From Colwellia sp. (GTDB lineage: Bacteria; Pseudomonadota; Gammaproteobacteria; Enterobacterales; Alteromonadaceae), in NCBI GenBank assembly GCA_029938115.1, contig JAPYOP010000004.1:72752-136751 (forward strand): a stretch of 64,000 bases of DNA, in the 5' to 3' direction. This document shows, piece after piece, positions 41,209-60,859 of the stretch. Position numbers and translations under genes: made by a program. Position 1 is the first letter of the stretch. Every line of letters begins with the position of its first letter. The notes under the pieces are model-generated. The model was given only the letters and a program-made list of their open reading frames with translations, was not told the origin of the DNA and ran no database searches.

Positions 41209-41295
41209 TATTATTTAATTCCTTTTTATTGTGAAATTCATTAGAAATAAAAACACCATCTCTAAATTATGACTTAACCTAAACATGGCATGGTT

Positions 41296-42552: not shown

Positions 42553-42642
42553 TATTGATTTCCTTTGAGTATGACTTAACGATCGTTTGATTTATAAGCT
42601 ACCTTGCATTGCAATATAATTAACAAGGGATTTATTTTTATC

Positions 42643-45420: not shown

Positions 45421-45661
45421 TGGTTTCCCTCTTAACTTGAGAAGTATTACAAACACAAAAATGAATTGTAAACGCTCAAAACAAAAAGTACAATCGATAA
45501 ATTCGATATAATTAAGCGTTTTAAAAGCAATAAAGTAAAAAACTCTGATAGATTTAACCTAAATCAATAATTAATATTAAGATACGTGCTATAAAGTTAG
45601 CTCTTATTTATTAAAGGTTATTACTGCCTAATTATATTGATACTTTTTTGAGAATTAAAAA

Positions 45662-46219
45662 TTGAATAATCCAGAAAAATTACTTACTCCAGGCCAAGTT
45701 GGGAAACTGCTAAGCGTATCACCGATAACTGTTCGGTTTTGGGCTAAAGAGGGTCGTTTAAAGTTTATTACAACCCCTGGAGGTCATCGTCGATTTGAAC
45801 GCACTGAAATAGAGAAATTAATTAAAGGTAAACTAGTTGCTAAAAAAGAGAAAACTATCGTTATCGTAGAAGATGACGAACAACATGCCGAATTATTAGT
45901 TGAATTTATTGAAGTCTTATATCCCAAGTACGAGGTTAAAGTTGCCTACAGTGGTTTTGAAGCGGGCAGTGTGATAGAGATCCTCAAACCAAACCTTATT
46001 TTTCTAGATTTAGTTATGCCTGATATTGATGGTTTAGCCGTTTGTAAACATATCAGATCAAATGACGCCACTAAAAACATTCCCATTATCGCGATGTCAG
46101 GCCTTTCTCGACAAGAAAATATAGATGAGGTTATTTCATCAGGCGCTAATCAGTTTTTAACTAAACCAATAAAATTATCGGTATTAAAACGAGCAGTAGA
46201 CTCTTTAATAGTAGATTAA
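45662..46219 (+). CDS. N-terminal HTH (MerR/excisionase-type) + C-terminal REC regulator
   Basis: HTH LLTPGQVGKLLSVSPITVRFWAKEGRLKFITTPGGHRRF, followed by a complete REC (IVEDDE, IFLDLVMPDIDG, AMSG, TKPI). The only available start upstream of the HTH is TTG 45662. Confidence 0.75.
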   Translation: MNNPEKLLTPGQVGKLLSVSPITVRFWAKEGRLKFITTPGGHRRFERTEIEKLIKGKLVAKKEKTIVIVEDDEQHAELLVEFIEVLYPKYEVKVAYSGFEAGSVIEILKPNLIFLDLVMPDIDGLAVCKHIRSNDATKNIPIIAMSGLSRQENIDEVISSGANQFLTKPIKLSVLKRAVDSLIVD

Positions 46220-47889: not shown

Positions 47890-49098
47890 TTATTGCACTA
47901 AGGTATGGCGGTACTGGCTTGGAGTCTGATTAATGAATTGTTTAAAGACGGCATTAAAGGTACTTTTTGAGGAAAACCCTGCTGTCATTGCCAAATCGAT
48001 AATTTTTATGTTTTGATCATGTTTTAGCCGCTGACAAACAAAATTTATTCGATACTCGTTTACAAATTGGTAAAAATTTTTGCCTTGATGTTGGTTCAAT
48101 ACTTCTGATAAATGATGAGTACTAATACCAACGATGTCTGCCAAACGGGTTAAGGTCAGTTGACTATCGAGATATGGCTGCTCAGTTTTCATTTTTTCGA
48201 TAATAACAGTTAAGAGGCTTTTTCTTATTTCTGGATCTAATGCGCCACCCTGTTCACTAGTACGTTCTTCACAAGACTCTGTGCTTCTGGCTGTGACAAG
48301 GTCAGTTTCTGCTTCTTGCTCGGGTTCGCTTGTTGCTAATTGCGCAATTTTAAATAAGGTTGGATTTCGCCACTGCGCCATAGCAATACTGTAAATAAAA
48401 ACAATGATCAGCACATCGCCAACAATAGATAAAGAATAGAATTCAGAGGCAAATCCATCCGCGGTTTTTAGTATCCAAATGACCAGATCTAACAACAGCA
48501 ATTTCCATAACCAAGTGAACATTTCAGGATTAAAATTTGATAATGTCTGATTCGCTTTGCGCTGAAAGCGTCGAACCATTGTCATGCTCAAACCAATGTA
48601 TATAAATGATTGCAATGTTAAAATTACTTGTCCGGCAATAATCGGAGTTAAGTTACTCGGTCCGTGCAAAATTGCCTCAAGCTTTATTTCAGGTGATGAT
48701 AAAAAAAGCTCAATATTAAGCAGATAACAGAGTATAAAAGGCGAAAAATGTAGTAAGTCTTTAAGTGCAAAGGGTCTATCGATGACCGCGTGGCGGCAAT
48801 AAAGATAAATAAACGCACCATAACTGGCCGGCAGAAATTGGTGTAGCCCAATTAACGCGGAAAATGCGTTGAGTTCACCATTAATGTAAATAAAAGGACC
48901 AAGAAAATTCAAACCTAAGAACAGACACCATGTGCCCAAAATACGGCTAGCGGTGGAGTTTTGAGGGCCCCATATCAACAAGCCCGCGAGCACAAAGCCT
49001 TGAAATACACCTATCACATGTAAATACTGCATTAAAATAGACATATATACGCTTAACTTTCCTATATTTGGCCAAGTAGCTAACGATAACAGCAGCAA
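47890..49098 (-). CDS. AraC-family transcription regulator with N-terminal multi-TM domain
   Basis: About 240 aa of TM helices, then an AraC HTH pair (LTRLADIVGISTHHLSEVLN...DLAMTAGFSSKSTFNAVFKQFINQTPSQYR). The real start may be the internal ATG 49044. Confidence 0.8.
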   Translation of the reverse strand: MLLLSLATWPNIGKLSVYMSILMQYLHVIGVFQGFVLAGLLIWGPQNSTASRILGTWCLFLGLNFLGPFIYINGELNAFSALIGLHQFLPASYGAFIYLYCRHAVIDRPFALKDLLHFSPFILCYLLNIELFLSSPEIKLEAILHGPSNLTPIIAGQVILTLQSFIYIGLSMTMVRRFQRKANQTLSNFNPEMFTWLWKLLLLDLVIWILKTADGFASEFYSLSIVGDVLIIVFIYSIAMAQWRNPTLFKIAQLATSEPEQEAETDLVTARSTESCEERTSEQGGALDPEIRKSLLTVIIEKMKTEQPYLDSQLTLTRLADIVGISTHHLSEVLNQHQGKNFYQFVNEYRINFVCQRLKHDQNIKIIDLAMTAGFSSKSTFNAVFKQFINQTPSQYRHTLVQ

Positions 49099-49431: not shown

Positions 49432-50827
49432 ACCGATATTATTTTAAAGGTGAGCATTTTAATTATTCCTCTGCTCACCTTTTCCACAAATGAATCATAA
49501 ATTAAAAACTAAAACTAAAACTAAAGAATTAATCCTCTTCATCTTCAACACGAACGCCCCAAACATCATGTTCATCGGCATGAATAATTTGTACCCAAAT
49601 TTGGTCGCCAGGTTTAGCATCGAAATCATCAGACAAATAAACTTTGCCATCAACTTCGGGGGCATCCATATAAGAGCGCCCTACTGCGCCAAGAGAATTG
49701 ACTTCATCAATTAAGATTAAATACTCTTGACCAATGCGAGCTTGTAATTTGTCGCTACTAATTTTTGCTTGTACAGCCATAAAGCGTTGTAGCCTGCCTT
49801 CCATCACTTCATCTGGAACATGATCCGGTAATGCGTTTGCCGTAGCGCCTTCAACAGGCGAATATTTAAAGCAACCTACGCGATCTAATTGTGCCTCTTC
49901 TAGAAATACCAATAGTTCTTCAAACTCTTCTTCAGTTTCTCCCGGAAAACCAACAATAAATGTTGAACGAATAACTAGCTCAGGGCAAATCTCACGCCAT
50001 TTAGCAATACGCTCTAACACACGGTCTGAGCTACCAGGACGTTTCATTAGTTTCAAAATACGTTTATTGGCATGCTGAAAAGGAATATCTAAATACGGCA
50101 GTATTTTTCCTTCTGCCATAAGAGGTATGATTTTATCAACATGTGGATAAGGGTAAACATAATGCAAACGAATCCAAACGCCCTGCTTGGCTAATTCTTC
50201 ACAAAGTTGCTGCATATGCGTTTTAACGGGCATACCATCCCAAAAGTCAGTTTTGTGTTTAACATCAACGCCGTATGCAGACGTGTCTTGAGAAATAACC
50301 AGCAACTCTTTAACGCCAGCATCAACTAAGCGCTTTGCTTCACCCAGTACATCACCCACAGGACGAGAGTCTAAATCGCCACGCATTGACGGGATTATGC
50401 AGAAGGTACAACGGTGATTACAGCCTTCTGATATTTTTAAATAGGCATAATGCTTAGGGGTAAGTTTAACCCCCTGTGGAGGTACTAAATCAATAAATGG
50501 ATTATGTACTGGCTTAGCAACATGCTTATGTACTTGTGTTAATACCTCATCATAAGCATGAGGACCTGTAACCCCAAGAACATTAGGATGAAGTTCGATA
50601 ATTTCATCTTTTTTAACACCTAAACAACCGGTAACCAACACCTTGCCATTTGCTGCTAACGCTTCACCTATGGTATCAAGTGATTCTTGTACCGCTGAAT
50701 CAATGAAACCACAGGTATTAACAATCACTAACTCAGCATCATCGTAGCTATTGGTTACATCATAGCCTTCAGTACGAAGTTGAGTAAGAATGCGTTCAGA
50801 ATCAACAAGATTCTTCGGGCAACCTAG
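49426..50827. repeat. Direct repeat copy A (rimO 3' 1.3 kb + terminator), paired with 59308-60703
   Basis: Collinear with copy B at a constant offset of 9876 nt through the coding part. About 8% mismatches in a 120-nt sample counted by eye. Similarity ends abruptly at 50827/50828. Confidence 0.85.
49446..49482. terminator. Bidirectional hairpin terminator downstream of the truncated rimO copy
   Basis: Stem aaaggtgagca (49446-49456) / tgctcaccttt (49472-49482). T-run on the + strand and A/T-rich on the - strand. Confidence 0.6.
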
Positions 50828-50836
50828 GTTGTTTAC
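49529..50836 (-). pseudogene. rimO: 5'-truncated rimO copy (lacks promoter and first ~52 codons; remaining 433 codons intact)
   Basis: The frame is open from 50836 to the stop at 49529. Homology to the full copy begins at ...[14 protein letters not shown] (50827), and an in-frame TAG lies at 50837-50839 just upstream. The radical-SAM motif CNHRCTFC is retained. There are 11 amino-acid differences in the 399 aa shared with the ORF-track protein. Confidence 0.85.
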
Positions 50837-51334
50837 CTAAGCCCTATCTTTAACCCTGTAACAGAGCTAAAACTACCATATACTCTTTTCATATTAACGT
50901 TAATTTGCTCGAAAAATGTGTTCAACAATTTACACTTCAAGGTCATTCTAGCAACCTCAAATGAAGTCTCCTGATAAGTAAGGGCAGGCGTTATTAATTC
51001 AAACTAGGCATAGAGTCATCTCATTTAATTGAACTTTTAATAGTGCACGTATTCATTTCTTGTATTAGATACAACGGACAAAACACCTTATCCCAGTTAG
51101 CAAAAGGACGGTACTTTGCTAGCTCCAAACAGTTTGAGAAACAACAGAAACAAGAGGTAACAAATTAATATCGACTCCACTTTCTTATTCCTTAGGTAAT
51201 GATAAAGCCAATAAGTATAAAAATATAATTTTTTGTTCCTAATTTAACCATAAGCACATTTTCATCATTGTATGACGTGATATTGTCATTTATATTAGAT
51301 GTTATTATTTCCTATAACGCCAGTTGCTTACGTG

Positions 51335-52009
51335 ATGCCTCAATTGTTATTTTATTTAAAAGCTTTAATGCTCGCTTACTTATATTTTTTGCTCTTTAGT
51401 TCAAATGCTGCCAATGCTAATTCATCGCTAAAATTATCTGATATTAAAGATGAGAACCTCGCGTCATGTATTTTAAAAAACGCGACGAAAATGCATTTAG
51501 AAATTGTAGAAGAGTTAACCCATTTAAAATGTCACGGCATGAACATCACTAATTTGGAAGGGCTAGAGATGTTGATAAATTTAGAGAAACTATCTCTATT
51601 CAATAACAGCCTAACTCATGCCGACCTTCGACCCTTTAAAAAACTCAAACATTTGAATGTTGCAAATAATAAGCTGGTAAACATCAATATTGTCGGTTTA
51701 TTACATTTAGAAAGTTTATACCTATTTAAAAACAAACTCGTTACGGTTGACTTTAAAGGCTTGAGTCAGCTCAAAAAAATTCGTATAACAAATAACAAGT
51801 TAAAAATACTAGATATTTCTGCACTGCTATCTCTTGAGAAAGCTTACTTTTTTGATAACAAACTTGAAGAGCTGGTTGTTGCAGGTCTGCCTAATATTAA
51901 ATTTATTGAATTAAGACAAAACCCCATGCCCGATGAGGTTTATGATAGGTACGATGCATTAGAGGGCATTACTATTATACATGATGGTAATGCCGATGAT
52001 TGGAAGTAA
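51335..52009 (+). CDS. Secreted leucine-rich-repeat (LRR) protein
   Basis: Signal peptide MPQLLFYLKALMLAYLYFLLFSSNAANA. About 7 LRRs of 22 aa (LxxLxLxxNxLxxhxhxxLxxL), for example LEKLSLFNNSLTHADLRPFKKLKHLNVANNKL. Start trimmed to ATG 51335. Confidence 0.75.
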   Translation: MPQLLFYLKALMLAYLYFLLFSSNAANANSSLKLSDIKDENLASCILKNATKMHLEIVEELTHLKCHGMNITNLEGLEMLINLEKLSLFNNSLTHADLRPFKKLKHLNVANNKLVNINIVGLLHLESLYLFKNKLVTVDFKGLSQLKKIRITNNKLKILDISALLSLEKAYFFDNKLEELVVAGLPNIKFIELRQNPMPDEVYDRYDALEGITIIHDGNADDWK

Positions 52010-52019
52010 ATCTATCGTC

Positions 52020-53279
52020 TTAAATGTTATAAGCTACCGATGCAAACCAAGTAGTTAAATCATTATTTGCTTTAGGAAAATAGTGCAAGCCATGCTTAAC
52101 ACGATAATCTGCAAAAACGAGCTTAAGCTCCCACTTTCTCGTCGCACGAAAGGCTAATTCAAAATCTAATTCTCTACCAATAACATTGCCATTTTGATAA
52201 TTTTTATAAACGTGATAAACACTCCGCCAGCGTAACTTTTTATATCGACCTTGATAGGTCAGATATTGATCTCGCAAGCCATTTTGCATACCGTAGCCGG
52301 TAAAAATATCAGCCCAACCTTGAAATTTATGATTAGTTCCTAATGGTGTGATAAAACCTTGCATATTATCTTCACTCAGTATTTCTTGGCTCAACTCAAT
52401 TCTATGACTTTTATACTGAACGCCAGCCTGTAGTAAACTATACCATGCTTGATAACTTACCTGATTATTGTCAGCATCTTGTTGTGTCGCAAATTCGACT
52501 GTATAGCGGTATTTAAATTTGTTTGGCTTAAACTCATCACTAATTCGCACACCAAATGTATTGGTGGAGAACCTTGCAAGATCATTATTTTCAAGAAAAT
52601 AACCATAACCAACGATCGAAAGATCATCTTCGGTTTTATACGCTACATTTACTAAATGTGCGTCTATACGGTGTTCACCTAGCTCATTAGCTGGACGCTT
52701 TTCAGTTAAACCATAGCGAATATCATCTTTTGGTATCGTAGCTGTGGAGTTTTGTCCGAAAATTCGATGAACTTTACTGCTATATGCATATTGTACATGC
52801 CAGTTGAGTTGATCATTATAATCAAACTTAAAAGCATCAAAACTTTGTGGTGTTTGCCAAAATTCAATTTCGCCTACAAAACGTTCATTATCAAACGCCA
52901 ACGCTTGGCGACCAAATATCAATTGCCAATTATCATCACTATCATATTGAAGATTGATTTTACTCCAATTAAAACCTTTTGGATCAGGAATAGCCGATGT
53001 CGCTTTTTTCACCGTAACTGAATTATAATCACCATCATTAAAAGCATAGACATAATTAGGCTCTAACAATAATTGCCATTGCTCGTTTTTATCCAAAGTG
53101 AAATTAGAGGTTAGCTTTACTCGTGTAGTAAATGCATGAGCATCCCCTAGCCAATTATCATTAACTTGCTGAAAACGAGTACGCATACCTAACTCATACT
53201 CACCGGGAATTTCCACCGCTAAAACATTATTTAAACAAGCAAAACTAACTAATAACGAAACAAAAACGGTATAAGCCAT
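52020..53279 (-). CDS. Alginate-export-family-like outer-membrane beta-barrel
   Basis: Signal peptide MAYTVFVSLLVSFACLNNVLA. The block WQLIFGRQALAFDNERFVGEIEFWQTPQSFDAFKFDY resembles the AlgE/alginate-export family core. Alternating beta pattern, C-terminal ...FASVAYNI. Start trimmed to ATG 53279 to remove the overlap with the anti-sigma gene. Confidence 0.65.
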   Translation of the reverse strand: MAYTVFVSLLVSFACLNNVLAVEIPGEYELGMRTRFQQVNDNWLGDAHAFTTRVKLTSNFTLDKNEQWQLLLEPNYVYAFNDGDYNSVTVKKATSAIPDPKGFNWSKINLQYDSDDNWQLIFGRQALAFDNERFVGEIEFWQTPQSFDAFKFDYNDQLNWHVQYAYSSKVHRIFGQNSTATIPKDDIRYGLTEKRPANELGEHRIDAHLVNVAYKTEDDLSIVGYGYFLENNDLARFSTNTFGVRISDEFKPNKFKYRYTVEFATQQDADNNQVSYQAWYSLLQAGVQYKSHRIELSQEILSEDNMQGFITPLGTNHKFQGWADIFTGYGMQNGLRDQYLTYQGRYKKLRWRSVYHVYKNYQNGNVIGRELDFELAFRATRKWELKLVFADYRVKHGLHYFPKANNDLTTWFASVAYNI

Positions 53280-53334
53280 TCTCTTCAAAGTTAAATCAGC
53301 TCGGGCATTACAGTCATTCTTAAGCGCATAAAAA

Positions 53335-54174
53335 TCAAACATCGTTTTTCCACTCTTGTAAACGCACACATAGACCACGAGAAACTATTAGACTACTGGG
53401 TTCACCGATGGCAGAGCCACCAAGCTCTTCAATAGTAACAATTAAAGACTCTGAGTCTTTTATTAAGCGCCATTGTGCGTTTGTTAATTGCTGTTCAATA
53501 AGTTTTTTACCGATAGAAATAACCCCTAAGCTTCTAGCTTCAGAGTCTGATTTAGACACGACCCACAACTCTAAAGACTGATCCTCATCAATCGTAGGGA
53601 TACCGACAACATTAACGATTAGTTTTTTCGATTCGCCATAGGTAGTTGCAACTAAATGTGCTTTACCGTCTGGTTCGGTCAATACTGCCACATAACTAAG
53701 TGGATCATTATTCTGCTCAAAAGGCTTGGTTATAAGTAACACCGATACGGCTAACATCGCAAATGAAAAAACACTGACATAGCGTATTGCCGGTCTCGTT
53801 AGCCATGACTTAAGCAATGAACTAAAAAAGTGAATTAAACCGGCTTCATTACTGGAATGTGACTCTATTTTAGTTGCCACCGTTTTTGATTTTTCAGTTA
53901 TTTCAATCGCATTTGCGATATTTTGCCAAACCTGTTCACTAGGAGGGAGTTCCTTGGTTTGTTGATCAAGAGGAACAAATCGTGTTTGCCAATACTCAAT
54001 ACGCTGAGCTAAGGCCTCGTTATAAACAGCCTGCTTCTCAACGCATTGATGAACATGGCGTGTTAAAGTCCCAAGCACATATTGGCTCGCTAAATGCCCA
54101 ATTATTTGGACGTTCTTATAACGTTCAGGTATTTTTGATGAAAATAGCGCATGAGAAGTTAATTGTTCAGACAT
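53335..54174 (-). CDS. Anti-sigma factor, RskA-type (single TM, periplasmic RskA-like domain)
   Basis: N-terminal sigma-binding region (LASQYVLGTL...), TM helix VSVFSFAMLAVSVLLI, and C-terminus LELWVVSKSDSEARSLGVI...LIVTIEELGGSAIGEPSS typical of RskA domains. Overlaps the sigma gene by 16 nt. Confidence 0.75.
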   Translation of the reverse strand: MSEQLTSHALFSSKIPERYKNVQIIGHLASQYVLGTLTRHVHQCVEKQAVYNEALAQRIEYWQTRFVPLDQQTKELPPSEQVWQNIANAIEITEKSKTVATKIESHSSNEAGLIHFFSSLLKSWLTRPAIRYVSVFSFAMLAVSVLLITKPFEQNNDPLSYVAVLTEPDGKAHLVATTYGESKKLIVNVVGIPTIDEDQSLELWVVSKSDSEARSLGVISIGKKLIEQQLTNAQWRLIKDSESLIVTIEELGGSAIGEPSSLIVSRGLCVRLQEWKNDV

Positions 54175-54788
54175 AACTGTAACCTCCCTAAGCCACGACG
54201 GATCCAAGATTTTATGGTATTAATCGGCGTATCAAAATAGTGAGCAATGTCCTCACGGCTGTAACCGTATAAATAAGCCATTAAAATACTTTGACTTTGT
54301 TTTTGCTCAAGTTTTGCTAAACAGTTATTTAGCAGTTGTTCACTGTGTTTATCTAAGCCCACTTGTGCAGAGTATTGGTTTATATTCTCTAACTGTTGCG
54401 GTGTTAATTCCATCTCATTAAATTGCACCATATCCTTTTGGTGCCGCCTTTGGTCATAGCGCAATCGATCATAAGCGCGATAGCGAACAATTGAGGCTAA
54501 CCAAGTGAATACTTCACTTTTATCAATATTATAACTGTCGCAATTTTGCCAAACCTGTATAAAAGCTTCCTGTAACACTTCGTTAGCACTATCAACATGA
54601 CGAGTAATACGATAGGCAATACCATTGAGACGAGCCGCAGTTAGTTGATAAAGTTCATTAAAAGCTTGTTTGTCACCTTGTTGGCATAATTGAAATAAAC
54701 ACGCTAATTTATCACCATCGTAACGACTTTTCTCTTTTACTTTGGTATTTTGCTCAGTCAATGTGATTTTTCCTTGTTGGTTTATCAT
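54159..54788 (-). CDS. ECF (group IV sigma-70) RNA polymerase sigma factor
   Basis: Region 2 (AFNELYQLTAARLNGIAYRITRHVDSANEVLQEAFIQVWQN...FTWLASIVRYRAYDRLR) and region 4 (ILMAYLYGYSREDIAHYFDTPINTIKSWIRRGL). Confidence 0.9.
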   Translation of the reverse strand: MINQQGKITLTEQNTKVKEKSRYDGDKLACLFQLCQQGDKQAFNELYQLTAARLNGIAYRITRHVDSANEVLQEAFIQVWQNCDSYNIDKSEVFTWLASIVRYRAYDRLRYDQRRHQKDMVQFNEMELTPQQLENINQYSAQVGLDKHSEQLLNNCLAKLEQKQSQSILMAYLYGYSREDIAHYFDTPINTIKSWIRRGLGRLQLCLNN

Positions 54789-54857
54789 CTTGATAAAATG
54801 AAAGTTTCATATATTTCAACCTAGTAAATCATAGGCTGGTCACAATTAAAAAGACAG

Positions 54858-55982
54858 TTAAAAATAAAAGTGGCTTTGTAAAAAGATGACGTCATAGTTT
54901 TGTTCTGGCATTTGGGGGATATCTTGCTTAACTCTAATGCCTAAACGCAGTTGAATATTTGAGAATGGCGTATACTCTGTAATAAAAGAATATCGTGTTT
55001 GTTCATTTTCGTCGACGTCATTATCAGGGTCAAAATACTCGGCGGTTAATTTAAAGTTCCAACCTTTTCGCCACTGATAATTCATTTCAATTAAACCTAC
55101 CTGTTGACTAATGTCTTGTTTAGTAAAAGTATTAGCTGCTTCTAAATTGATATAGTCTACTTCGGCTAACAATCCAATATTCCGCCATTGAGTCCCTGCA
55201 AACACATTAAACATTTTCGTTTGGTGGTCGCCGTCATTTAGCATTGCACTAGCACCTAATCTGAAATGTGGAAACAGATGTTCTATTCGAGTACCGTATA
55301 ACAAACTATCGTCGTCATTAGTCGCTTGACTCGTGCCGTTAGCCAAGTAAAGGTTTACGGTGGTTTTTCCAAAATTAACGCCATACTCAATGCCATTGTC
55401 GCTATTATCAAAGTTCATACCGGTGACTTGACGAATGAAAGCACTGTCATCTTCAATGCGTAATCCATATGGAATAAATAATTTTCCTGCTTTTAAATAG
55501 CTTGCTTGTAATGATGAATTTTCAGCAAAGTTATACATAACAAAAGCTTCACGGTTAATGGCACTTCCGGGGGCTACTTGTTCATCAACATAAAAAGATA
55601 AGCCTGTTTCAGGGATGCTAAAATGTAAGTAAATCTGCGCACTTTCCGTTGAAAAGCCTTTGCTAGTGTCGTTAGTTTCGGCTTCACTTTTTTGATAACT
55701 CGCGTTAAAACGAGCATCAGTGCCAATGGTTAAGAATTGTGTTAATTTAGCTATTGTTTTACTATCAAATTGATAAGTTTTGCGGGGTAATACTGTTTGT
55801 CCGTAATTTCTACCAAAATCATTTCGCAAACCACCGCCAATAGGGTTCACGTGGCATGCGCTGCATGCAAGGTTATTTTTAATGGCTAAATACGGCTCGG
55901 CTTGTGCTGCAATGCTAAAAGCAAATGCGATGACTGACGATAATATTATTACTGCGGTTATTCGTTTATAAAGAAAATTCAT
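54858..55982 (-). CDS. Outer-membrane beta-barrel protein with N-terminal CxxCH motif (candidate fused monoheme cytochrome-porin)
   Basis: Signal peptide MNFLYKRITAVIILSSVIAFAFSIAAQA. CSACH at mature residues 12-16 (nt 55851-55865). Then about 340 aa with an alternating amphipathic pattern, ending in the aromatic ...LQSHFYF. Start trimmed to ATG 55982, which overlaps the upstream stop by 17 nt. Confidence 0.6.
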   Translation of the reverse strand: MNFLYKRITAVIILSSVIAFAFSIAAQAEPYLAIKNNLACSACHVNPIGGGLRNDFGRNYGQTVLPRKTYQFDSKTIAKLTQFLTIGTDARFNASYQKSEAETNDTSKGFSTESAQIYLHFSIPETGLSFYVDEQVAPGSAINREAFVMYNFAENSSLQASYLKAGKLFIPYGLRIEDDSAFIRQVTGMNFDNSDNGIEYGVNFGKTTVNLYLANGTSQATNDDDSLLYGTRIEHLFPHFRLGASAMLNDGDHQTKMFNVFAGTQWRNIGLLAEVDYINLEAANTFTKQDISQQVGLIEMNYQWRKGWNFKLTAEYFDPDNDVDENEQTRYSFITEYTPFSNIQLRLGIRVKQDIPQMPEQNYDVIFLQSHFYF

Positions 55983-56862
55983 AATAAAATACTCCTCCTT
56001 CAATGCCATTATTATCACCATCTATAATTTGCCCTTGTTGAGTAACCATAGTTGCGATACTGCTTTCATTTAACCGAATCATTAACTTGGTAATGTCGCG
56101 ATCTAACCCCTGCACACTCACTTGTATGCTCTGGTCGTTAATAACATGAATTGAAACTTGCTCATTAGAAACCAACGTCGAATAAACCGATGATAGGGAA
56201 CCTTTAAAACTGTTAACAAGTATTTGATCATTAGTTAAGTTGGCGAAATTCATTGCTTTGTTAAACCAAAAAACTATCGTTATTGCGTTTTTTTCTCGCC
56301 ATATATAATCATTTTGACTCATAAAGTCGGCAACATTTTCTTCTGATACATTCTCTTTAAACTTTACTATAGTGACTACTGCTCGGTTGATTTTTGCCAT
56401 GTTTGCAGTGTTTTGTGGGATCACCGCTCCTTCATCTATCCATTGTTTAATTGCGGAAATAGTTTGCTCATCAAGTGCAGACTGCCCCAATGGCATACGA
56501 GCACCTGCCCGGTTATCACCTGTGATTTTGAGGTATAGATAGCTTTCTTGAGCAGAGCCGGGCAAAACTCGTTTAAATAACGAATTTGAAGAGTCTACGT
56601 TTATTAAGTTATCAATTGAACTTTCAAGTGATGACAAATCTTGTCCTGCTGCTGGGTTAGCTCCTCCATGACAAACAGAACAAATAGGTGTAAATACGTG
56701 ATCTTGAATTGATGGTAACGTTGCTTGAATGCCGTCTTCCACCAGCGGTACTTCGGTTATTTCATCAAGAGGGCGGCCTTGTTCATCTAACCCATCACCA
56801 CTTCCTGCGTTACAACCAGAAAAAAGTAGTAAACAAATAGCTAAAGATAATGGAAGTTTCAT
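55966..56862 (-). CDS. Lipoprotein with PSCyt1-like c-type cytochrome domain + Ig-like C-terminal domain
   Basis: Lipobox LLFSGC. HVFTPICSVCHGG...RVLPGSAQESYLYLKI...MPLGQSALDEQTISAIKQWIDEGA follows the pattern of the planctomycete-type cytochrome c domain (CxxCH at nt 56668-56682). The C-terminus ...IIDGDNNGIEGGVFYYEFSL resembles bacterial Ig-like domains. Start trimmed to ATG 56862. Confidence 0.65.
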   Translation of the reverse strand: MKLPLSLAICLLLFSGCNAGSGDGLDEQGRPLDEITEVPLVEDGIQATLPSIQDHVFTPICSVCHGGANPAAGQDLSSLESSIDNLINVDSSNSLFKRVLPGSAQESYLYLKITGDNRAGARMPLGQSALDEQTISAIKQWIDEGAVIPQNTANMAKINRAVVTIVKFKENVSEENVADFMSQNDYIWREKNAITIVFWFNKAMNFANLTNDQILVNSFKGSLSSVYSTLVSNEQVSIHVINDQSIQVSVQGLDRDITKLMIRLNESSIATMVTQQGQIIDGDNNGIEGGVFYYEFSL

Positions 56863-56932
56863 AGCACATCTCGTTTTCATTAATACATGAAAACCCAACA
56901 CTAGATAATATTAGTGTTGAGTTTGGTCGACG

Positions 56933-58933
56933 CTACGGGCGAGCAATTGTCCAACTAGGGTAATCTCCAGTCGTATCACCAATTTCACTGTCACCTATAT
57001 AGAAATACAATGGTAAGCCTTGATAAGACCATTGATAGGTTGTTGTATCATTTTCTGCACGAGAAATAATGGTATAATCACCAAAGGCTTGCTCTGGAGA
57101 TATTGCATAAATCGGTGGCCATAAGGCCGCACAACTATCAAAACAAACACTAACACCTGAATCTTTCACATCTGAATCAAAAGTGTATAAAGTTAACCCT
57201 TTAAGTTCCTCGGCTGTTTTACCAATACTGTCAAGTACATCGCCATGAGCCACCAGTAACGGCCCCTCAGTTTCATGATCATCAACTTTAATTGGTGCCG
57301 GTCGTGCAACATGCCAAATTGAATTTACATTTTCACCCTTGATATCATCAGCAGTTTCATCTGGCGTGAAAAAATATAACGCCATATCATTTATTGCCCA
57401 CTGCTTGCTACCATTACTGCGGGTAATGATTGAAAATGGCGCAGTTGCTACATCAGTTTTATCGGCAATTAAGGGTGGCCAAGCAGCTAAACAGTCACCT
57501 TCACAAAGACTGACACCCGCCGTGTCGTTATCAAAGGTATAAAGTGCAAAGCCAGTTTTATTAGCGATTGAATCAACAAATTCGTTAGTATTCTCATCGC
57601 GTATTAAGGTATGAACAGCACCTTCTAAGGTTAACGTAGCCCCTAATATATTGATTTCCTGTTTTAATACCGTGTTAACAGGGGTGATTAAATGCCAAAT
57701 ACCATTGATCCCATCACCATTGATTTCTCCTCTGGCAAAGTCGCTTTTAAAGAAATAAAGTGGCATGTCTTGAAAAGCCCACTGCTTAGTTCCGTCGTTT
57801 CGGCTAATTAGACTAAATTCCCCAATGGCAACATCTTCCTCATTTGGTACAAATGCAGGCCAAATATCTAAACAAGCATCAATACAGTTTGATGTGCCCG
57901 TTGTATCGTTATCAAATACGTATAAGCTAAAACCATCTTTATCCATGGTTGTAACGGTATTGGCTAAGGCCGACACATTAACCATGCCCGTTGCTGATAA
58001 TGAACGGCCATTGGCTGTGGTGCGTTGTATAGCGGGCTCTTGTGTGGCTATATGCCAGATATCATTGACTTCATCACCGTTCACATCTCCTGCGGCATTA
58101 TCATTTACAAAGAAATATAAAGGTTTGCCTTTATATGCCCACTGCATATTGCCGTTACTCACCTCAATAATACTTAAAGGTGGCATTGCCATAGCGCCAG
58201 TATCAGCAAGCAGAGGTGGCCAAATATTGATACAATCACCTGCACAGGCAGTATCATTTAACGGATCGTTATCAAAGCTATAGAGGGCAAAGCCCGCCTT
58301 ATCCCTACGCATTTGAGACAAGACTCCTGAACTATCACTAACCGTAAGAATAGTTTCGTTACCGATATAGCTATTCACACCTGAGAGATTAGCTGACATT
58401 AATGGCGTAGGGCGTGCAAGGTGCCAAACATTGTTAATACCATCTCCGCCAATATCTCCCTGAGCAGAGTCTAGATACCAGTGGTACAAAGGCTGGCCTT
58501 TATAAGCCCATTGCATATCACCCTCACCGCGAGCAACTATGGTCATTAATTCGTCTATTTCAGCTCCCTCTCCAGCAAGTAGTGGCGGCCACCGGCCAGC
58601 ACAGGTATCAGTATCATCTGGCGTACCTTCACAACTTGAAGAATTTATTTCGTCATTATCGAAGGTATACAAAGACAAGCCAGATTCAGCAATAATTAAT
58701 GAACCATTGTTATTTACAACCGTTACATTTGGCTTAGAGATCTGGCTTGGAAAGACTGCTGTCGGCGTAGACGGTGGTGGATCAATATAAGGATCATCAT
58801 TCGTTGATGAAGAGGATCCACCGCCACCTCCTCCACAAGCAGAAAGTACAACAACGGCAACACTAGAAATTAAAATGTATTTTGTATAATTGATTAAGGT
58901 AATAATGAGTTTACTTTTTATTTGCTTATGCAT
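56933..58933 (-). CDS. Large lipoprotein with 10 COG4315 / PF03640-type repeats (5 tandem double modules)
   Basis: Lipobox VLSAC followed by GGGGGGSSSS. There are five modules. Each has a repeat G(F/L)xLYxFDxD...C..(C)...WPP(L/I) followed by a repeat (Q)W(A/S)(Y/F/I)...PLY(F/H)(F/W/Y)..D...GD..G......W(H/T)(L/I/V)A. This is the Yx(FWY)xxD lipoprotein motif. Start uncertain: ATG 58933, 58963 or 59008. Confidence 0.75.
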   Translation of the reverse strand: MHKQIKSKLIITLINYTKYILISSVAVVVLSACGGGGGGSSSSTNDDPYIDPPPSTPTAVFPSQISKPNVTVVNNNGSLIIAESGLSLYTFDNDEINSSSCEGTPDDTDTCAGRWPPLLAGEGAEIDELMTIVARGEGDMQWAYKGQPLYHWYLDSAQGDIGGDGINNVWHLARPTPLMSANLSGVNSYIGNETILTVSDSSGVLSQMRRDKAGFALYSFDNDPLNDTACAGDCINIWPPLLADTGAMAMPPLSIIEVSNGNMQWAYKGKPLYFFVNDNAAGDVNGDEVNDIWHIATQEPAIQRTTANGRSLSATGMVNVSALANTVTTMDKDGFSLYVFDNDTTGTSNCIDACLDIWPAFVPNEEDVAIGEFSLISRNDGTKQWAFQDMPLYFFKSDFARGEINGDGINGIWHLITPVNTVLKQEINILGATLTLEGAVHTLIRDENTNEFVDSIANKTGFALYTFDNDTAGVSLCEGDCLAAWPPLIADKTDVATAPFSIITRSNGSKQWAINDMALYFFTPDETADDIKGENVNSIWHVARPAPIKVDDHETEGPLLVAHGDVLDSIGKTAEELKGLTLYTFDSDVKDSGVSVCFDSCAALWPPIYAISPEQAFGDYTIISRAENDTTTYQWSYQGLPLYFYIGDSEIGDTTGDYPSWTIARP

Positions 58934-58971
58934 GATCATAATCCATCCAATTTTAGGTTTCATATAAGCAA

Positions 58972-58996
58972 TACGCCGCAAAAAAAATAAAGTTGC
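58972..58996 (-). promoter_or_regulatory. Candidate ECF-type promoter (AAC-N16-CGTA) upstream of the lipoprotein operon
   Basis: The minus strand reads gtgcAAC-tttattttttttgcgg-CGTAt, with exactly 16 nt between AAC and CGT. This matches the minimal ECF -35/-10 signature. It lies 39 nt upstream of ATG 58933. Pattern match only. Confidence 0.3.
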
Positions 58997-59022
58997 ACTA
59001 ATGTTCATTTATAAATAAAAAT

Positions 59023-59294
59023 ATGAATAAAAGTGAATTGGTAGGAAAATCGCTGAAGGGGCAGATATATCAAAAGCTTCTGATATTCGGGCGTTAGATA
59101 GTTTGATTGGCTCTATCACTGAAGAATTATCTAATGGAGGTGAAGTTGCATTAGTGGGTTTTGGTACTTACAAAGTTAATGAACGTGCTGCTCGTAAGGT
59201 TCGTAATCTTCATACAGGTGCGGGAATTCAAATCGCTGCTGCAAAAGTAGCTGCTGTTAACGGTGAGTTATTTAGGTCAAAAATGCCCTGCTGA
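59023..59294 (+). pseudogene. HU-family DNA-binding protein gene, frameshifted
   Basis: ATG 59023 gives MNKSELVGK and then runs out of frame to TAG 59095-59097. Adding one A to the a4 run at 59046-59049 restores [58 protein letters not shown]..., which joins the track ORF 59103-59294. The conserved RNP motif reads RNL, and the C-terminal tail departs from the HU pattern. Confidence 0.7.
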
Positions 59295-59307
59295 TACATG
59301 GTATAAA

Positions 59308-60703
59308 ATTTGGACCGCTATTATTATAAAGGCGAGTGTTTAAATGATTCTCCTACTCGCCTTTTTCACAAAGAAACCATCAATTGAAAACTTAACCTAA
59401 ATCGTTAAGCTTCTTCATCTTCGACACGAACGCCCCAAACATCATGCTCATCTGCATGAATAATTTGAACCCATATTAGGTCGCCAGGTTTGGCATCAAA
59501 ATCATCAGACAAATAAACTTTGCCATCAACTTCTGGTGCATCCATATAAGAACGCCCTACTGCGCCAAGAGAATTTACTTCATCAATGAGAATTAAATAT
59601 TCTTGGCCAATGCGTGCTTGTAGTTTATCCGCACTGATTTTAGCTTGTACTGCCATGAAACGCTGTAAGCGTTCTTCCATTACTTCATCTGAAACATGGT
59701 CAGGTAGAGCATTCGCCGTAGCACCTTCAACAGGCGAGTATTTAAAACAACCTACACGGTCTAATTGCGCTTCTTCTAAAAAGTCTAATAACTCTTCAAA
59801 TTCTTCTTCAGTTTCACCTGGAAAACCAACAATAAACGTTGAACGAATAACGAGTTCAGGACAAATTTCTCGCCATTTAGCAATACGCTCTAAGACTCTG
59901 TCTGAGCTACCAGGACGTTTCATTAGTTTAAGGATACGTTTGTTAGCATGCTGAAAAGGAATATCTAAATACGGTAATATTTTACCTTCTGCCATAAGAG
60001 GTATGATTTTATCAACATGCGGATAAGGGTAAACATAATGCAAACGGATCCATACGCCCTGCTTCGCTAACTCTTCACATAACTGCTGCATGTGTGTTTT
60101 AACGGGCATGCCTTCGTAGAAATCCAATTTATGTTTAACATCAACACCATAAGCAGAGGTATCTTGAGAAATGACTAGCAACTCTTTTACACCTGAATCA
60201 ACTAAACGTTTGGCTTCGCCTAATACATCTCCCACAGGACGAGAGTCTAAATCGCCACGCATTGAAGGGATAATGCAGAAAGTACAACGATGGTTGCAGC
60301 CTTCTGATATTTTTAAATACGCATAATGTTTAGGTGTTAACTTCACACCTTGTGGCGGTACTAAATCAATAAACGGATTATGCACGGGCTTTACAACATG
60401 CTTATGTACTTGTGTTAATACTTCATCGTATGCATGAGGGCCTGTTACACCTAATACATTAGGGTGCAATTCGATAATTTCATCTTTCTTAACACCTAAA
60501 CAACCGGTAACCAATACTTTACCATTTGCGGCTAACGCTTCACCGATGGTATCAAGTGATTCTTGCACCGCTGAATCAATAAAACCACAGGTATTTACAA
60601 TCACTAATTCTGCATCATCGTAGCTATTGGTTACATCATAACCTTCGGTGCGAAGTTGAGTAAGAATACGCTCTGAGTCCACTAAGTTCTTTGGGCAGCC
60701 GAG
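59308..60703. repeat. Direct repeat copy B (inside and downstream of full-length rimO), paired with 49426-50827
   Basis: See copy A. Same orientation. Contains the terminator and codons ~53-484 of rimO. Confidence 0.85.
59328..59366. terminator. Bidirectional hairpin terminator between the HU pseudogene and rimO
   Basis: Stem aaaggcgagt (59328-59337) / actcgccttt (59355-59364) followed by a T-run. Homologous to the hairpin at 49446-49482, with compensatory stem changes. Confidence 0.6.
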
Positions 60704-60859
60704 ACTGACAAAACCTATTTTCGCAGCGCGATTTGACTCTGTATTTGCAGTAACGACGGCCTGATGCTGTTCTTCAATCATTTTAGATGGAATGTCTAAC
60801 GTGGTTGTTTGGCTCTGAGCTGAATTACTTGTGCTTGGGTCAAATTGCTTAACGGTCAT
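59405..60859 (-). CDS. rimO: Ribosomal protein S12 methylthiotransferase RimO (full length)
   Basis: 484 aa. N-terminal MTTase cysteines ([22 protein letters not shown]), radical-SAM CNHRCTFC, and a C-terminal TRAM domain. The ~45-aa N-terminal extension before KIGFVSLGC suggests the real start may be an internal ATG. Confidence 0.95.

What the first reader, a model, noticed from the sequence alone, without database searches (positions are those of the whole stretch)
52020..58996. Cargo is a co-directional six-gene envelope cluster with its own ECF sigma/anti-sigma pair
On the minus strand, with gaps of 70, -17, 69, -16 and 55 nt, the genes are:
1. COG4315-repeat lipoprotein.
2. CxxCH (PSCyt1-like) lipoprotein.
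3. CxxCH beta-barrel outer-membrane protein.
4. ECF sigma factor.
5. RskA-type anti-sigma factor.
6. Alginate-export-like porin.

Every non-regulatory product carries a signal peptide or lipobox, so all of them are predicted to act in the periplasm or outer membrane. The regulators sit inside the cluster, which suggests autoregulated, signal-induced expression. Two proteins have potential c-type haem sites, and one is cysteine-rich with C..C..WPP motifs. This makes a redox or metal-handling function at the outer membrane plausible. I do not know a characterised system with this composition.
Basis: inference. Interest (0 to 1): 0.8.

Follow-up and report, generated by a model that had tools for sequence, protein, structure and literature searches.

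The report
ECF-controlled outer-membrane cytochrome-porin gene cluster
A Colwellia-type marine bacterium carries a conserved seven-gene set, switched on by its own sigma/anti-sigma pair, that builds an uncharacterised outer-membrane module around a haem-carrying porin distantly related to Cyc2, the bacterial iron-oxidising protein.

Summary
All six minus-strand genes are present with the stated spacings, signal peptides or lipoboxes and haem motifs.

Three points add to it or correct it:
- A seventh gene belongs to the set: the convergent LRR protein at 51299-52009(+).
- The g1 gene starts downstream of the ORF's first ATG.
- The CxxCH barrel (g3) is a remote sister of Cyc2, the fused monohaem cytochrome-porin. 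It has a 16-strand barrel and the same haem-motif spacing. The profile match covers only the N-terminal haem region, and g3 fails the strict Cyc2 motif.

Across 80 genome loci, the g2-g3 pair (lipoprotein cytochrome c plus cytochrome-porin) is the constant core. The full seven-gene set recurs in 28-35 Alteromonadales, Cellvibrionales and related genomes.

A conserved ECF-type promoter, TGCAAC(TTT)-N16/17-CGTA, lies upstream of g1. Where the sigma operon is separate, the same motif lies upstream of it too. The sigma factor is SigK-like (ECF18/19), has both hallmark cysteines and is followed by an RskA-type anti-sigma.

Most likely this is an inducible outer-membrane electron-transfer module. 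Its substrate is unknown. No paper describing it was found. I rate it a new variant of a known kind, interest about 0.65.

The parts
58972..58997 (-). ECF-type promoter, TGCAAC-N16-CGTA (TGCAACTTTATTTTTTTTGCGGCGTA)
   Evidence: It is the only exact match in the 64-kb window, and no relaxed match lies upstream of the sigma or LRR genes. The same motif sits upstream of g1, g2 or the sigma operon at 46-47 sites in related loci, with a spacer of 16 or 17. The -10 CGTAT matches the ECF18 consensus quoted in PMC13492112.
56933..58963 (-). g1: outer-membrane lipoprotein with ten PF03640/COG4315 repeats, arranged as five modules each carrying C-x3-10-C-x3-WP(P). The true start is 58963 or 58939/58933.
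   Evidence: Pfam E 2e-101 and NCBIfam SCO0930_lipo. Lipobox VLSAC. The cysteine motif is conserved in orthologues. The AF2 model has pLDDT 88 and no PDB fold match. In Thalassotalea ND16A the protein is fused to g2-type cytochrome domains.
55966..56862 (-). g2: lipoprotein monohaem c-type cytochrome (PSCyt1-like domain with CSVCH and an RMP methionine) plus a C-terminal Ig-like domain
   Evidence: The lipobox (LFSGC), the CxxCH and the RMP motif are conserved. The gene lies directly upstream of g3 in about 74 of 80 loci.
54858..55982 (-). g3: fused monohaem cytochrome and 16-strand outer-membrane porin, a remote sister of Cyc2
   Evidence: Invariant AEPYLAxKxxxxCxxCHxNPxGGG. AF2 predicts 16 strands. 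Foldseek finds 16-strand porins including OprP and OprO. hhalign against a Cyc2-signature set gives probability 95%, E 4e-8, over the N-terminal region only. An HMM built from the Cyc2-signature set hits only g3-family proteins.
54159..54788 (-). g4: ECF sigma factor, SigK-like (ECF18/19 type)
   Evidence: Sigma70_r2 and r4_2; NCBIfam SigK PRK09646, E 5e-36. The two cysteines (C146, C206) are invariant in orthologues, as in SigK C133/C183 (PMC7509140).
53335..54174 (-). g5: RskA-type transmembrane anti-sigma factor; overlaps g4 by 16 nt
   Evidence: RskA_C E 3e-16. Conserved YVAVL, LW..S..D..R and EE.GGS..EP...G.C motifs.
52020..53342 (-). g6: alginate-export-family (AlgE-like) outer-membrane porin. 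The start is 53342 (public call, 440 aa) or 53279.
   Evidence: Pfam Alginate_exp matches 17 of 20 orthologues. It always travels with the sigma, anti-sigma and LRR genes. Its closest outside paralogues lie in nitrate-assimilation clusters.
51299..52009 (+). LRR protein: secreted, internalin-like, with conserved C57, C78-H79 and the C-terminus RQNPMPDELYD..HDGNADDW. It is the co-conserved seventh gene.
   Evidence: LRR_4 and LRR_8. The profile matches internalins. It lies next to g6 in 34 loci and is co-directional with the sigma operon in Cellvibrionales and Bowmanella.

Best explanation
This is a self-contained ECF regulon for the outer membrane.

**Regulation.** A SigK-like sigma factor (g4) is held by a membrane-spanning RskA-type anti-sigma (g5). 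When an envelope signal releases it, it transcribes the operon g1-g2-g3-g4-g5-g6 from a single TGCAAC-N16-CGTA promoter upstream of g1. That includes its own gene, giving positive feedback.

**Output.** The output is a two-haem electron path at the outer membrane.
- g3 is a 16-strand porin. Its N-terminal monohaem segment probably sits in the periplasmic mouth of the barrel, as proposed for Cyc2.
- g2 is an outer-membrane-anchored lipoprotein cytochrome c, probably with His/Met haem ligation.
- g1 is a multi-module, cysteine-pair lipoprotein that works with the cytochromes, perhaps in substrate or partner binding.
- g6 is a small-solute porin. Together with the periplasmic LRR protein it always accompanies the sigma/anti-sigma pair. 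It either admits the substrate or inducer, or helps relay the signal.

**Most likely chemistry.** A small soluble redox-active species is oxidised, or less likely reduced, in or at the g3 pore. A metal cation such as Fe(II) is the leading guess, because the conserved barrel residues are mostly acidic. Electrons would then pass through g2 to periplasmic carriers.

**Shown:** gene content, conservation, promoter motif, folds and motif-level homology. **Inferred:** haem attachment, direction of electron flow, substrate, signal, and the roles of g1, g6 and the LRR protein.
For: **Synteny.** g2-g3 are adjacent in about 74 of 80 loci. The full seven-gene set occurs in 28-35 loci across several orders.

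**Promoter.**
- The motif is found at 46-47 cluster gene starts, against 65 matches in 1.36 Mb overall. The spacer is 16 or 17 and the -35 has a TTT extension.
- It has a single exact copy in the window.
- It also precedes g2 where g1 is absent (L012, L014, L015, L019).
- It also precedes the sigma operon where that operon is separate (15 sites).
- Its -10 matches the ECF18 CGTAT consensus.

**Sigma and anti-sigma.** SigK-like with an invariant cysteine pair, followed by RskA_C.

**g3.**
- Invariant CxxCH 12 residues after signal-peptide cleavage.
- A 16-strand barrel, with OprP and OprO among the best structural matches. These are the same templates reported for Cyc2 (PMC8406198).
- The FARQ[TY]xxxCxxCH spacing is identical, and both families have an FGRx[FY] motif downstream.
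- hhalign gives 95% probability, E 3.6e-8. A generic cytochrome control gives about 10%.
- The Cyc2-signature HMM hits 35 g3-family proteins and nothing else among 1,091 proteins.

**g2.** Conserved lipobox, CxxCH and RMP.

**g1-g2 link.** A natural fusion of COG4315 modules with two g2-type cytochrome domains exists (P0211).

**ECF association.** Distant g2-g3 loci also carry an ECF sigma gene just downstream.
Against: - Homology to Cyc2 is confined to about 45-65 N-terminal residues. The barrels are not detectably similar in sequence.
- g3 lacks the strict PXFAR[Q/K][T/Y] and PXL motifs.
- No haem attachment, redox activity or transcription has been measured.
- The hosts are aerobic heterotrophs, not known iron oxidisers.
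- The AF2 model of the haem segment has low confidence (pLDDT below 50 for residues 35-93).
- The LRR gene in this genome is convergent and has no ECF motif upstream.
- Conserved Arg and His residues in g6, and its nitrate-cluster paralogues, hint at an anionic solute rather than a metal cation.
- g1 has no fold relative from which to infer a role.
Confidence: 0.6

Rival explanations
1. **Envelope oxidative-stress defence.** The two haem proteins act as catalysts or scavengers for a reactive oxidant or radical at the outer membrane (peroxide, hypochlorite, superoxide or a nitrogen oxide). They do not act as a conduit to the respiratory chain. The redox-sensitive SigK-type sigma factor senses the stress.
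For: ECF18/19 sigma factors carry a redox-sensitive cysteine pair, and it is invariant here. The g1 modules carry conserved cysteine pairs. The g3 family has an invariant His four residues from the C-terminus that is absent from the Cyc2-signature set, which suggests a different haem environment. The nearest paralogues of g6 serve uptake of a small anion, so an anionic oxidant is conceivable.
Against: There is no peroxidase, catalase, SOD or thioredoxin-type domain above threshold. The only detectable relative of g3 is an electron-transfer oxidase. g2 looks like an ordinary His/Met electron carrier.
Confidence: 0.2
2. **Trans-envelope signalling plus metal homeostasis.** The AlgE-like porin g6, the LRR protein and RskA form a surface-to-cytoplasm signalling chain, analogous in logic to FecA-FecR-FecI. 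g1 (CxxxC modules) binds a thiophilic metal such as Cu(I). g2 and g3 oxidise that metal.
For: The sigma, anti-sigma, LRR and g6 genes are inherited all-or-none, in 34-35 loci. In Cellvibrionales they form one operon, sigma-antisigma-LRR-g6, separate from g1-g3. The LRR protein has an invariant C-terminal peptide and conserved Cys and His residues. g1 has 3-5 cysteine pairs.
Against: There is no TonB-dependent transducer and no FecR domain. No known copper-binding domain was detected. The cysteine pairs in g1 may simply be structural disulfides. Nothing shows contact between the LRR protein, g6 and RskA.
Confidence: 0.12
3. **Polysaccharide export or degradation accessory.** The alginate-export-like barrel exports a polymer, or the module supplies electrons to extracellular polysaccharide oxidases.
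For: g6 matches the Pfam Alginate_exp family. Many of the hosts are polysaccharide degraders such as Cellvibrio, Microbulbifer, Agarilytica and Teredinibacter-like strains.
Against: The conserved neighbourhood holds no glycosyltransferase, polymerase, AlgK/AlgX-like or CAZyme gene. The closest outside paralogues of g6 lie in nitrate-assimilation operons, so the family includes small-solute porins.
Confidence: 0.04
4. **Fortuitous neighbours.** The genes sit together on an inserted fragment and do not form a functional unit.
For: In this genome the block lies between two diverged rimO copies, so it may have arrived as one piece.
Against: The same genes stay together in different genomic contexts and in rearranged order across orders, and they share one promoter motif.
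Confidence: 0.02

Closest known systems
Cyc2, the fused monohaem cytochrome-porin iron oxidase (Acidithiobacillus, Mariprofundus PV-1; Keffer et al. 2021, PMC8406198)
   Same: Both have a signal peptide, a single CxxCH a few residues into the mature protein, and a 16-strand barrel most like OprP and OprO. Both are over 365 aa. The motif spacing is identical (P-x-[F/L]-A-x-[Q/K]-x-x-x-x-CxxCH) and both have a downstream FGRx[F/Y]. The profile-profile match is 95%.
   Different: g3 fails the defining PXFAR[Q/K][T/Y] and PXL motifs. The barrel sequences are not detectably related. g3 has an invariant NPxGGGxR after the haem motif and an invariant His at -4 from the C-terminus. It is always paired with a lipoprotein cytochrome and is under ECF control. 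Loci with the Cyc2 signature lack g1, g2, g6 and LRR homologues. The hosts are heterotrophs.
cyc2-cyc1 of the Acidithiobacillus rus operon
   Same: An outer-membrane cytochrome-porin is encoded next to a periplasmic c-type cytochrome that would accept its electrons.
   Different: Here the partner is a monohaem PSCyt1-like lipoprotein with an Ig-like domain, not a dihaem c4. No rusticyanin or cox genes are present. The gene order is partner first, then porin.
SigK-RskA (ECF18/ECF19) of Mycobacterium and Yersinia (PMC7509140; PMC7826278)
   Same: The sigma factor is SigK-like with the conserved cysteine pair. An RskA_C anti-sigma lies immediately downstream and overlaps it. The regulon is small and encodes secreted proteins and lipoproteins. 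The -10 is of the CGTAT type.
   Different: The regulon content differs: there is no fasciclin MPT70/83 and no DipZ. The -35 is TGCAACTTT rather than GCATCC. The sigma genes lie inside the target operon in Alteromonadales.
Porin-cytochrome complexes MtrCAB and PioAB/MtoAB
   Same: They also provide outer-membrane electron transfer through a barrel and cytochrome pair.
   Different: Those systems use 26-strand barrels that sheathe separate decahaem proteins. Here one haem is fused to a 16-strand barrel and a separate lipoprotein carries one more haem.
FecA-FecR-FecI cell-surface signalling
   Same: An outer-membrane barrel gene is inherited together with a transmembrane anti-sigma and an ECF sigma.
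   Different: The barrel is AlgE-like, not a TonB-dependent transducer. The anti-sigma is of the RskA type, not FecR. An LRR protein is added. No signalling role has been shown.
Alginate_exp-family porins of nitrate-assimilation clusters (P0522, P0517)
   Same: They are the closest paralogues of g6 outside the cluster, at about 29% identity and of similar size.
   Different: Their genomic context and presumably their solute differ. They are not linked to a sigma factor or an LRR gene.

Membership tests
Cyc2 fused cytochrome-porin (criteria of Keffer et al. 2021, PMC8406198) | Signal peptide followed by a single CXXCH near the N-terminus | tested here: met
   CSACH starts 12 residues after the predicted cleavage site (AQA|EP). 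It is invariant in 21 aligned homologues and in 13 distant representatives.
Cyc2 fused cytochrome-porin (criteria of Keffer et al. 2021, PMC8406198) | 16-strand beta-barrel porin with structural similarity to OprO and OprP | tested here: met
   The AF2 model has 16 strands and barrel pLDDT of 70-88. Foldseek gives OprP 2o4v TMq 0.62 and OprO 4rjw TMq 0.60 among 16-strand porins.
Cyc2 fused cytochrome-porin (criteria of Keffer et al. 2021, PMC8406198) | Length of at least 365 aa | tested here: met
   374 aa from M14, which is also the public gene call.
Cyc2 fused cytochrome-porin (criteria of Keffer et al. 2021, PMC8406198) | PXFAR[Q/K][T/Y] motif upstream of CXXCH | tested here: not met
   g3 has P-Y-L-A-I-K-N at the same spacing. 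P, A and K are kept; F becomes L, R becomes I, and T/Y becomes N. More distant members have PYMAVRE.
Cyc2 fused cytochrome-porin (criteria of Keffer et al. 2021, PMC8406198) | PXL motif about 4 residues after CXXCH | tested here: not met
   g3 has CH-V-N-P-x-G-G-G instead, with no PxL.
Cyc2 fused cytochrome-porin (criteria of Keffer et al. 2021, PMC8406198) | Sequence similarity to Cyc2 representatives (BLASTP E no greater than 1e-5) | tested here: inconclusive
   No named Cyc2 sequence was available. Against 41 metagenomic proteins carrying the Cyc2 signature, the best BLASTP E is 8e-5 and the HMM gives 1.4e-5 (20 bits). hhalign gives 95%, E 3.6e-8, for the N-terminal region only. The barrel alone is not significant.
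Cyc2 fused cytochrome-porin (criteria of Keffer et al. 2021, PMC8406198) | Fe(II) oxidase activity and covalently bound haem | not testable with these tools
   This needs expression, haem staining and Fe(II) oxidation assays.
ECF18/ECF19 SigK-RskA pair | ECF sigma (regions 2 and 4 only) with its best matches to SigK-type models | tested here: met
   Sigma70_r2 and r4_2; NCBIfam PRK12537 at 3e-37 and SigK PRK09646 at 5e-36. All NCBIfam hits are below the equivalog cut-offs, so this shows type, not orthology.
ECF18/ECF19 SigK-RskA pair | RskA_C-domain transmembrane anti-sigma encoded directly downstream | tested here: met
   PF10099 E 3e-16, above the cut-off; the gene overlaps the sigma gene by 16 nt.
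ECF18/ECF19 SigK-RskA pair | Conserved cysteine pair, equivalent to SigK C133/C183 | tested here: met
   C146 (CL..L at the start of region 4) and C206 (L..CL at the C-terminus) are invariant in 19 orthologues. The criterion comes from PMC7509140.
ECF18/ECF19 SigK-RskA pair | Assignment by the ECF Hub group HMMs | not testable with these tools
   The ECF Hub models are not available here. The promoter -10 CGTAT agrees with the ECF18 consensus quoted in PMC13492112.
COG4315 / PF03640 (Lipoprotein_15) repeat lipoproteins | Tandem PF03640 repeats with the Yx(FWY)xxD motif and a lipobox | tested here: met
   Ten repeats, 331 bits. Ten [LIVM][YF].[FWY].{1,2}D-type motifs (LYTFDND, LYFFVND and similar) and the lipobox LSAC.
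Alginate_exp (PF13372, AlgE-like barrels) | Match to the family profile above the curated cut-off | tested here: inconclusive
   The window protein scores 20.1 bits against a cut-off of 25.2. However, 17 of 20 orthologues match (best E 1.9e-9), and most database homologues carry PF13372.
FecIRA-type cell-surface signalling | TonB-dependent transducer with an N-terminal signalling domain, plus a FecR anti-sigma | tested here: not met
   No Plug, TonB_dep_Rec, STN or FecR domain occurs in any cluster protein.
MtrCAB / PioAB porin-cytochrome complexes | Multihaem (decahaem) cytochrome inside a 26-strand barrel | tested here: not met
   g2 and g3 each have one CxxCH, and the barrel has 16 strands.

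The most novel reading that the evidence does not exclude
Aerobic heterotrophic Gammaproteobacteria carry a previously unrecognised sister family of the Cyc2 iron oxidase. It is present in at least 411 of 185,579 species genomes. Together with a dedicated lipoprotein cytochrome and a COG4315 lipoprotein of unknown fold, it would form a stress-inducible electron conduit across the outer membrane. That conduit would let non-lithotrophs oxidise Fe(II) or other small reductants, or quench extracellular radicals. Its expression would be governed by a new kind of trans-envelope sensor built from an AlgE-like porin, a periplasmic LRR protein and an RskA anti-sigma.
Probability: 0.3. Interest if true: 0.85.

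Novelty: new variant of a known kind. Interest (0 to 1): 0.65.

Why it matters
**Iron cycling.** Cyc2 is the main genetic marker used to infer microbial Fe(II) oxidation. A related cytochrome-porin family that the motif-based Cyc2 screen excludes, and that sits in common marine and soil heterotrophs, would widen the set of organisms able to exchange electrons across the outer membrane. It could also change how iron-cycling potential is read from metagenomes.

**Testable handles.** The cluster offers a compact system with three open questions attached:
- what signal RskA-type anti-sigma factors sense;
- what the widespread COG4315/PF03640 repeat does, given that it has no solved structure and no literature;
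- whether an LRR protein plus an AlgE-like porin takes part in signalling.

The predicted promoter and the small regulon make the genetics straightforward.

Tried and rejected
**Searches that found nothing.**
- PDB sequence searches for g1 (phmmer) and for g6 (profile) gave no hits.
- Foldseek of a confident g1 model against the PDB found nothing below E 0.02.
- Literature searches for COG4315, PF03640 and Lipoprotein_15 found nothing relevant.
- The supplements of the Cyc2 paper and a text search for 'FARQ' did not yield Cyc2 sequences. I therefore collected Cyc2-signature proteins from metagenomes by DNA pattern.
- tblastn of g3 against plasmids found no match.
- The supplements of the ECF reclassification paper are not held.

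**Ideas tested and dropped.**
- Full-length or barrel-only homology between g3 and Cyc2 is not significant.
- A generic 'any CxxCH' explanation for the g3-Cyc2 match fails the control against the g2 cytochrome domain, which gives only about 10% probability.
- g1 and g2 are not paralogues (BLASTP E 0.55). Their clustering together came from a natural fusion protein.
- There is no second ECF promoter upstream of the sigma or LRR genes in this window.
- There is no evidence for internal terminators: six sites found against 5.9 expected.
- A mobile-element reading lacks an integrase and a tRNA.
- The polysaccharide-export reading of g6 is weakened by its nitrate-cluster paralogues.

Full report
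**1. Observation**

The six minus-strand ORFs exist as described. The public gene calls for this contig (138,981 nt, NCBI) use the same g2, g3 and g4 starts.

Profile searches confirm the labels:
- g1 has ten PF03640/COG4315 repeats (E 2e-101; NCBIfam SCO0930_lipo).
- g2 has a weak PSCyt1 hit around CSVCH.
- g3 has no curated family but carries CSACH.
- g4 is an ECF sigma factor with its best hits to SigK-type models.
- g5 has RskA_C (E 3e-16).
- g6 matches Alginate_exp weakly. Seventeen of 20 orthologues match, with a best E of 1.9e-9.

Lipoboxes are visible in g1 (VLSAC) and g2 (LFSGC). Signal peptides are visible in g3, g6 and the LRR protein.

**2.

(a) The gene on the other strand at 51299-52009 encodes a secreted internalin-like LRR protein. 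It is co-conserved with the cluster in 34 loci and always lies next to g6.

(b) A conserved promoter at 58972-58997(-) lies inside the long g1 ORF. g1 therefore begins at 58963 or, more likely, at 58939/58933.

(c) g3 is not an orphan. It resembles Cyc2.

**3. Conservation**

The g3 family has 1,818 hits in the word-indexed protein search. In the exhaustive profile search of 1.84 billion representatives it has 2,078, 887 and 224 representative clusters at E no greater than 1e-3, 1e-10 and 1e-30. It is encoded in 411 of 185,579 species genomes.

The closest relative is a Colwellia MAG at 94% identity, so the window is from a Colwellia-like organism.

In the 80 best genome loci:
- g2 lies directly upstream of g3 in about 74.
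- g1 lies upstream of g2 in about 45.
- The sigma, anti-sigma, g6 and LRR genes occur together in 34-35.
- 28 loci have g1, the sigma gene, g6 and the LRR gene all recognisable.

In Alteromonadales the order matches the window. In Cellvibrionales and relatives, sigma-antisigma-LRR-g6 forms a separate operon on the opposite strand.

In Steroidobacteraceae, Nevskiales and others only g2-g3 is kept. There it is often followed by a small barrel (Gcw_chp) and an ECF sigma factor of another group. Linkage of g2-g3 to an ECF sigma is therefore recurrent: 51 of 80 loci have one within 8 kb.

**4. Regulation**

A motif [T/C]GCAAC-N16/17-CGTA, with a TTT extension after the -35, lies 24-116 nt upstream of g1 in nearly every locus that has the sigma pair. 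It also lies upstream of the sigma operon where that operon is separate (15 cases). It lies upstream of g2 in four genomes that lack g1.

Forty-six of 65 matches in 1.36 Mb fall at these gene starts. The remainder is about what chance predicts, given 0.49 expected per 64 kb for the TGCAAC form.

The window has exactly one copy, upstream of g1. No relaxed copy lies before the sigma or LRR genes.

The -10 CGTAT equals the ECF18 consensus quoted from the ECF Hub (-35 GCATCC, -10 CGTAT; PMC13492112).

The sigma factor keeps both cysteines that characterise ECF18/19 SigK proteins (PMC7509140 and PMC7826278).

The gaps are small or negative and terminator-like sites are not in excess. The simplest reading is one sigma-dependent transcript, g1 to g6, that includes the sigma gene and so gives positive autoregulation. 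This is inferred, not measured.

**5. g3**

In an alignment of 21 homologues the mature N-terminus reads AEPYLAxKNNLxCxxCHVNPxGGGxRNxFGxxYG, with C53, C56 and H57 invariant.

AlphaFold2 gives a 16-strand barrel, with barrel blocks at pLDDT 70-88. The haem segment, residues 35-93, is not confidently modelled.

Foldseek returns 16-strand porins. OprP (TMq 0.62) and OprO (0.60) are among the best. The Cyc2 authors report the same templates. They define Cyc2 by four features (PMC8406198):
- a signal peptide;
- one CXXCH;
- a 16-strand porin;
- the motif AXPXFAR[Q/K][T/Y] upstream of CXXCH, plus PXL downstream.

No named Cyc2 sequence was at hand. I therefore pulled 41 full-length proteins with that signature from metagenomes by DNA pattern.

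Their spacing, FARQ[T/Y]xxxCxxCH, is the same as LAIKNNLACSACH in g3. Both families have FGRx[F/Y] about 10-12 residues after the haem motif.

The comparisons gave these results:
- Profile-profile comparison: 95% probability (E 3.6e-8) over 46 N-terminal columns.
- The same comparison without signal peptides: 81% (E 1.2e-5).
- The barrels alone: not significant.
- A control with the g2 cytochrome domain: about 10%.
- An HMM of the Cyc2-signature set, searched against 1,091 neighbourhood proteins: 35 g3-family members and nothing else.

More distant g3-family representatives (PYMAVREGYKCSQCH) are closer still to the Cyc2 motif. Two carry an extra upstream PQFPARHGHECTACH.

I conclude that g3 belongs to a sister family of Cyc2. 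It shares the architecture and the ancestry of the haem segment, but it fails the strict membership motif. It also has features of its own: NPxGGGxR, an acid-rich set of invariant barrel residues, and an invariant His at -4 from the C-terminus.

**6. g2, g1, g6 and the LRR protein**

*g2.* It is a lipoprotein. A conserved GxGLDxxGxP segment follows the lipid cysteine. Next come a variable linker and a PSCyt1-like domain with invariant CxxCH and RMP, the likely Met ligand. The C-terminus is an Ig-like domain. In Granulosicoccus a second cytochrome domain replaces the Ig-like domain.

*g1.* It is a lipoprotein of five modules, each with LYxFDxD ... C-x3-10-C-x3-WPP ... QWxYxGxPLYxFxxD. The cysteine pairs are conserved in orthologues. 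Its AF2 model is confident (pLDDT 88), yet it has no PDB fold match below E 0.02, no PDB sequence relative and no literature. In Thalassotalea ND16A, modules 4 and 5 are replaced by two g2-type cytochrome domains (P0211). This natural fusion ties g1 functionally to the cytochromes.

*g6.* It has no solved relative by sequence. Its nearest paralogues outside the cluster, at about 29% identity, lie in nitrate-assimilation operons. The family therefore includes small-solute porins, and a polysaccharide role is unlikely.

*LRR protein.* It has conserved C57, C78-H79 and a nearly invariant C-terminal peptide, RQNPMPDELYD..HDGNADDW.

Loci with the Cyc2 signature have none of these accessory genes.

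**7. Mechanism**

The best-supported model is an ECF-inducible outer-membrane electron-transfer module. The route would run from the substrate in or at the g3 pore to the g3 haem, then to the g2 haem, then to periplasmic carriers. g1 would act as an associated binding or redox partner. g6 and the LRR protein would serve either solute entry or signal relay to RskA.

The substrate is not known. Fe(II) or another cation fits the Cyc2 analogy and the acidic barrel. An anion or radical fits the relatives of g6 and the redox-sensing sigma type.

Rival readings are listed with their tests: oxidant defence, a signalling and metal-homeostasis system, and a polysaccharide role.

**8. Genomic setting ('cargo')**

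The cluster lies between a full rimO (59405-60859) and a 5'-truncated rimO copy (about 49529-50827). The copies are 85.6% identical over 1.4 kb.

The 8.2-kb block 50820-59032 is 94.7% identical to the Colwellia MAG locus L001 and ends exactly at the truncated copy. L001 also has rimO fragments around its cluster.

This fits acquisition or reshuffling at rimO. However, the window holds no integrase and no tRNA, no plasmid carries g3, and in other genera the cluster is not next to rimO. Mobility is plausible but not shown.

**9. Novelty and score**

No paper in the searched libraries describes this gene set or a Cyc2-like protein under ECF control.

The parts belong to known kinds: ECF18/19 regulation and the Cyc2-like cytochrome-porin. 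The family, its obligatory partners and its regulation are undescribed.

I rate it a new variant of a known kind, with interest 0.65. There is roughly a 0.3 chance that it represents a broader, unrecognised capacity of heterotrophs for trans-outer-membrane electron transfer with a new sensing module.

Noticed in passing
window 49529-50827(-) and 59405-60859(-): rimO is present twice, as a full copy and a copy lacking about 130 nt at its 5' end. The copies are 85.6% identical and 9,876 nt apart, and they bracket the whole cluster. The block shared with Colwellia MAG L001 (94.7% identity) ends exactly at the truncated copy, and L001 also holds three rimO fragments. The window contains no integrase and no tRNA.
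   Followed up: partly
window 59023-59294(+): An HU-like DNA-binding protein gene lies between rimO and g1, divergent from g1. It is broken by a frameshift near 59047 and has an aberrant C-terminus, so it is probably a pseudogene. A fragment of it is also present in L001.
   Followed up: partly
window 52009-52020: g6 and the LRR gene converge with only 10 nt between their stop codons. That leaves no room for terminators, so their transcripts would overlap.
   Followed up: no
L008 11216-12246 and L009 11228-12316: In two Alteromonadaceae genomes an extra gene sits between g3 and the sigma gene: a fatty-acid hydroxylase family protein in L008 and a homocysteine S-methyltransferase-like protein in L009. 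In both genomes a CGCAACTTT..CGTA motif precedes the extra gene; the sigma gene has its own copy (TGCAAC in L008, CGCAAC in L009). This suggests lineage-specific additions to the regulon.
   Followed up: partly
proteins P0381 and P0399 (distant g3-family representatives): These proteins carry an additional upstream segment. In P0381 it is a second haem motif (IPQFPARHGHECTACH) that resembles the canonical Cyc2 PxFAR motif. In P0399 the segment is similar (LPQFPVRFG) but has no second CxxCH. P0381 may be an intermediate between the two families.
   Followed up: no
L201 and L203 (contexts of P0522 and P0517): The closest paralogues of g6 outside the cluster are Alginate_exp-family porins embedded in nitrate-assimilation clusters (ANTAR regulator, NrtABC-like transporter, NirBD, NasA). 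They are probably nitrate or nitrite porins.
   Followed up: partly
protein P0211 (Thalassotalea sp. ND16A; L004 7157-9016): The g1 orthologue has three COG4315 modules fused to two g2-type cytochrome c domains. This genome also keeps a separate g2.
   Followed up: partly
window 37295-46219: Downstream of the truncated rimO lies a dense set of signalling genes: a PAS histidine kinase, a PAS-MCP, a receiver-EAL protein, a hybrid PAS kinase and a MerR-receiver protein. An AraC-type regulator with a multi-pass membrane N-terminus follows at 47890-49098.
   Followed up: no
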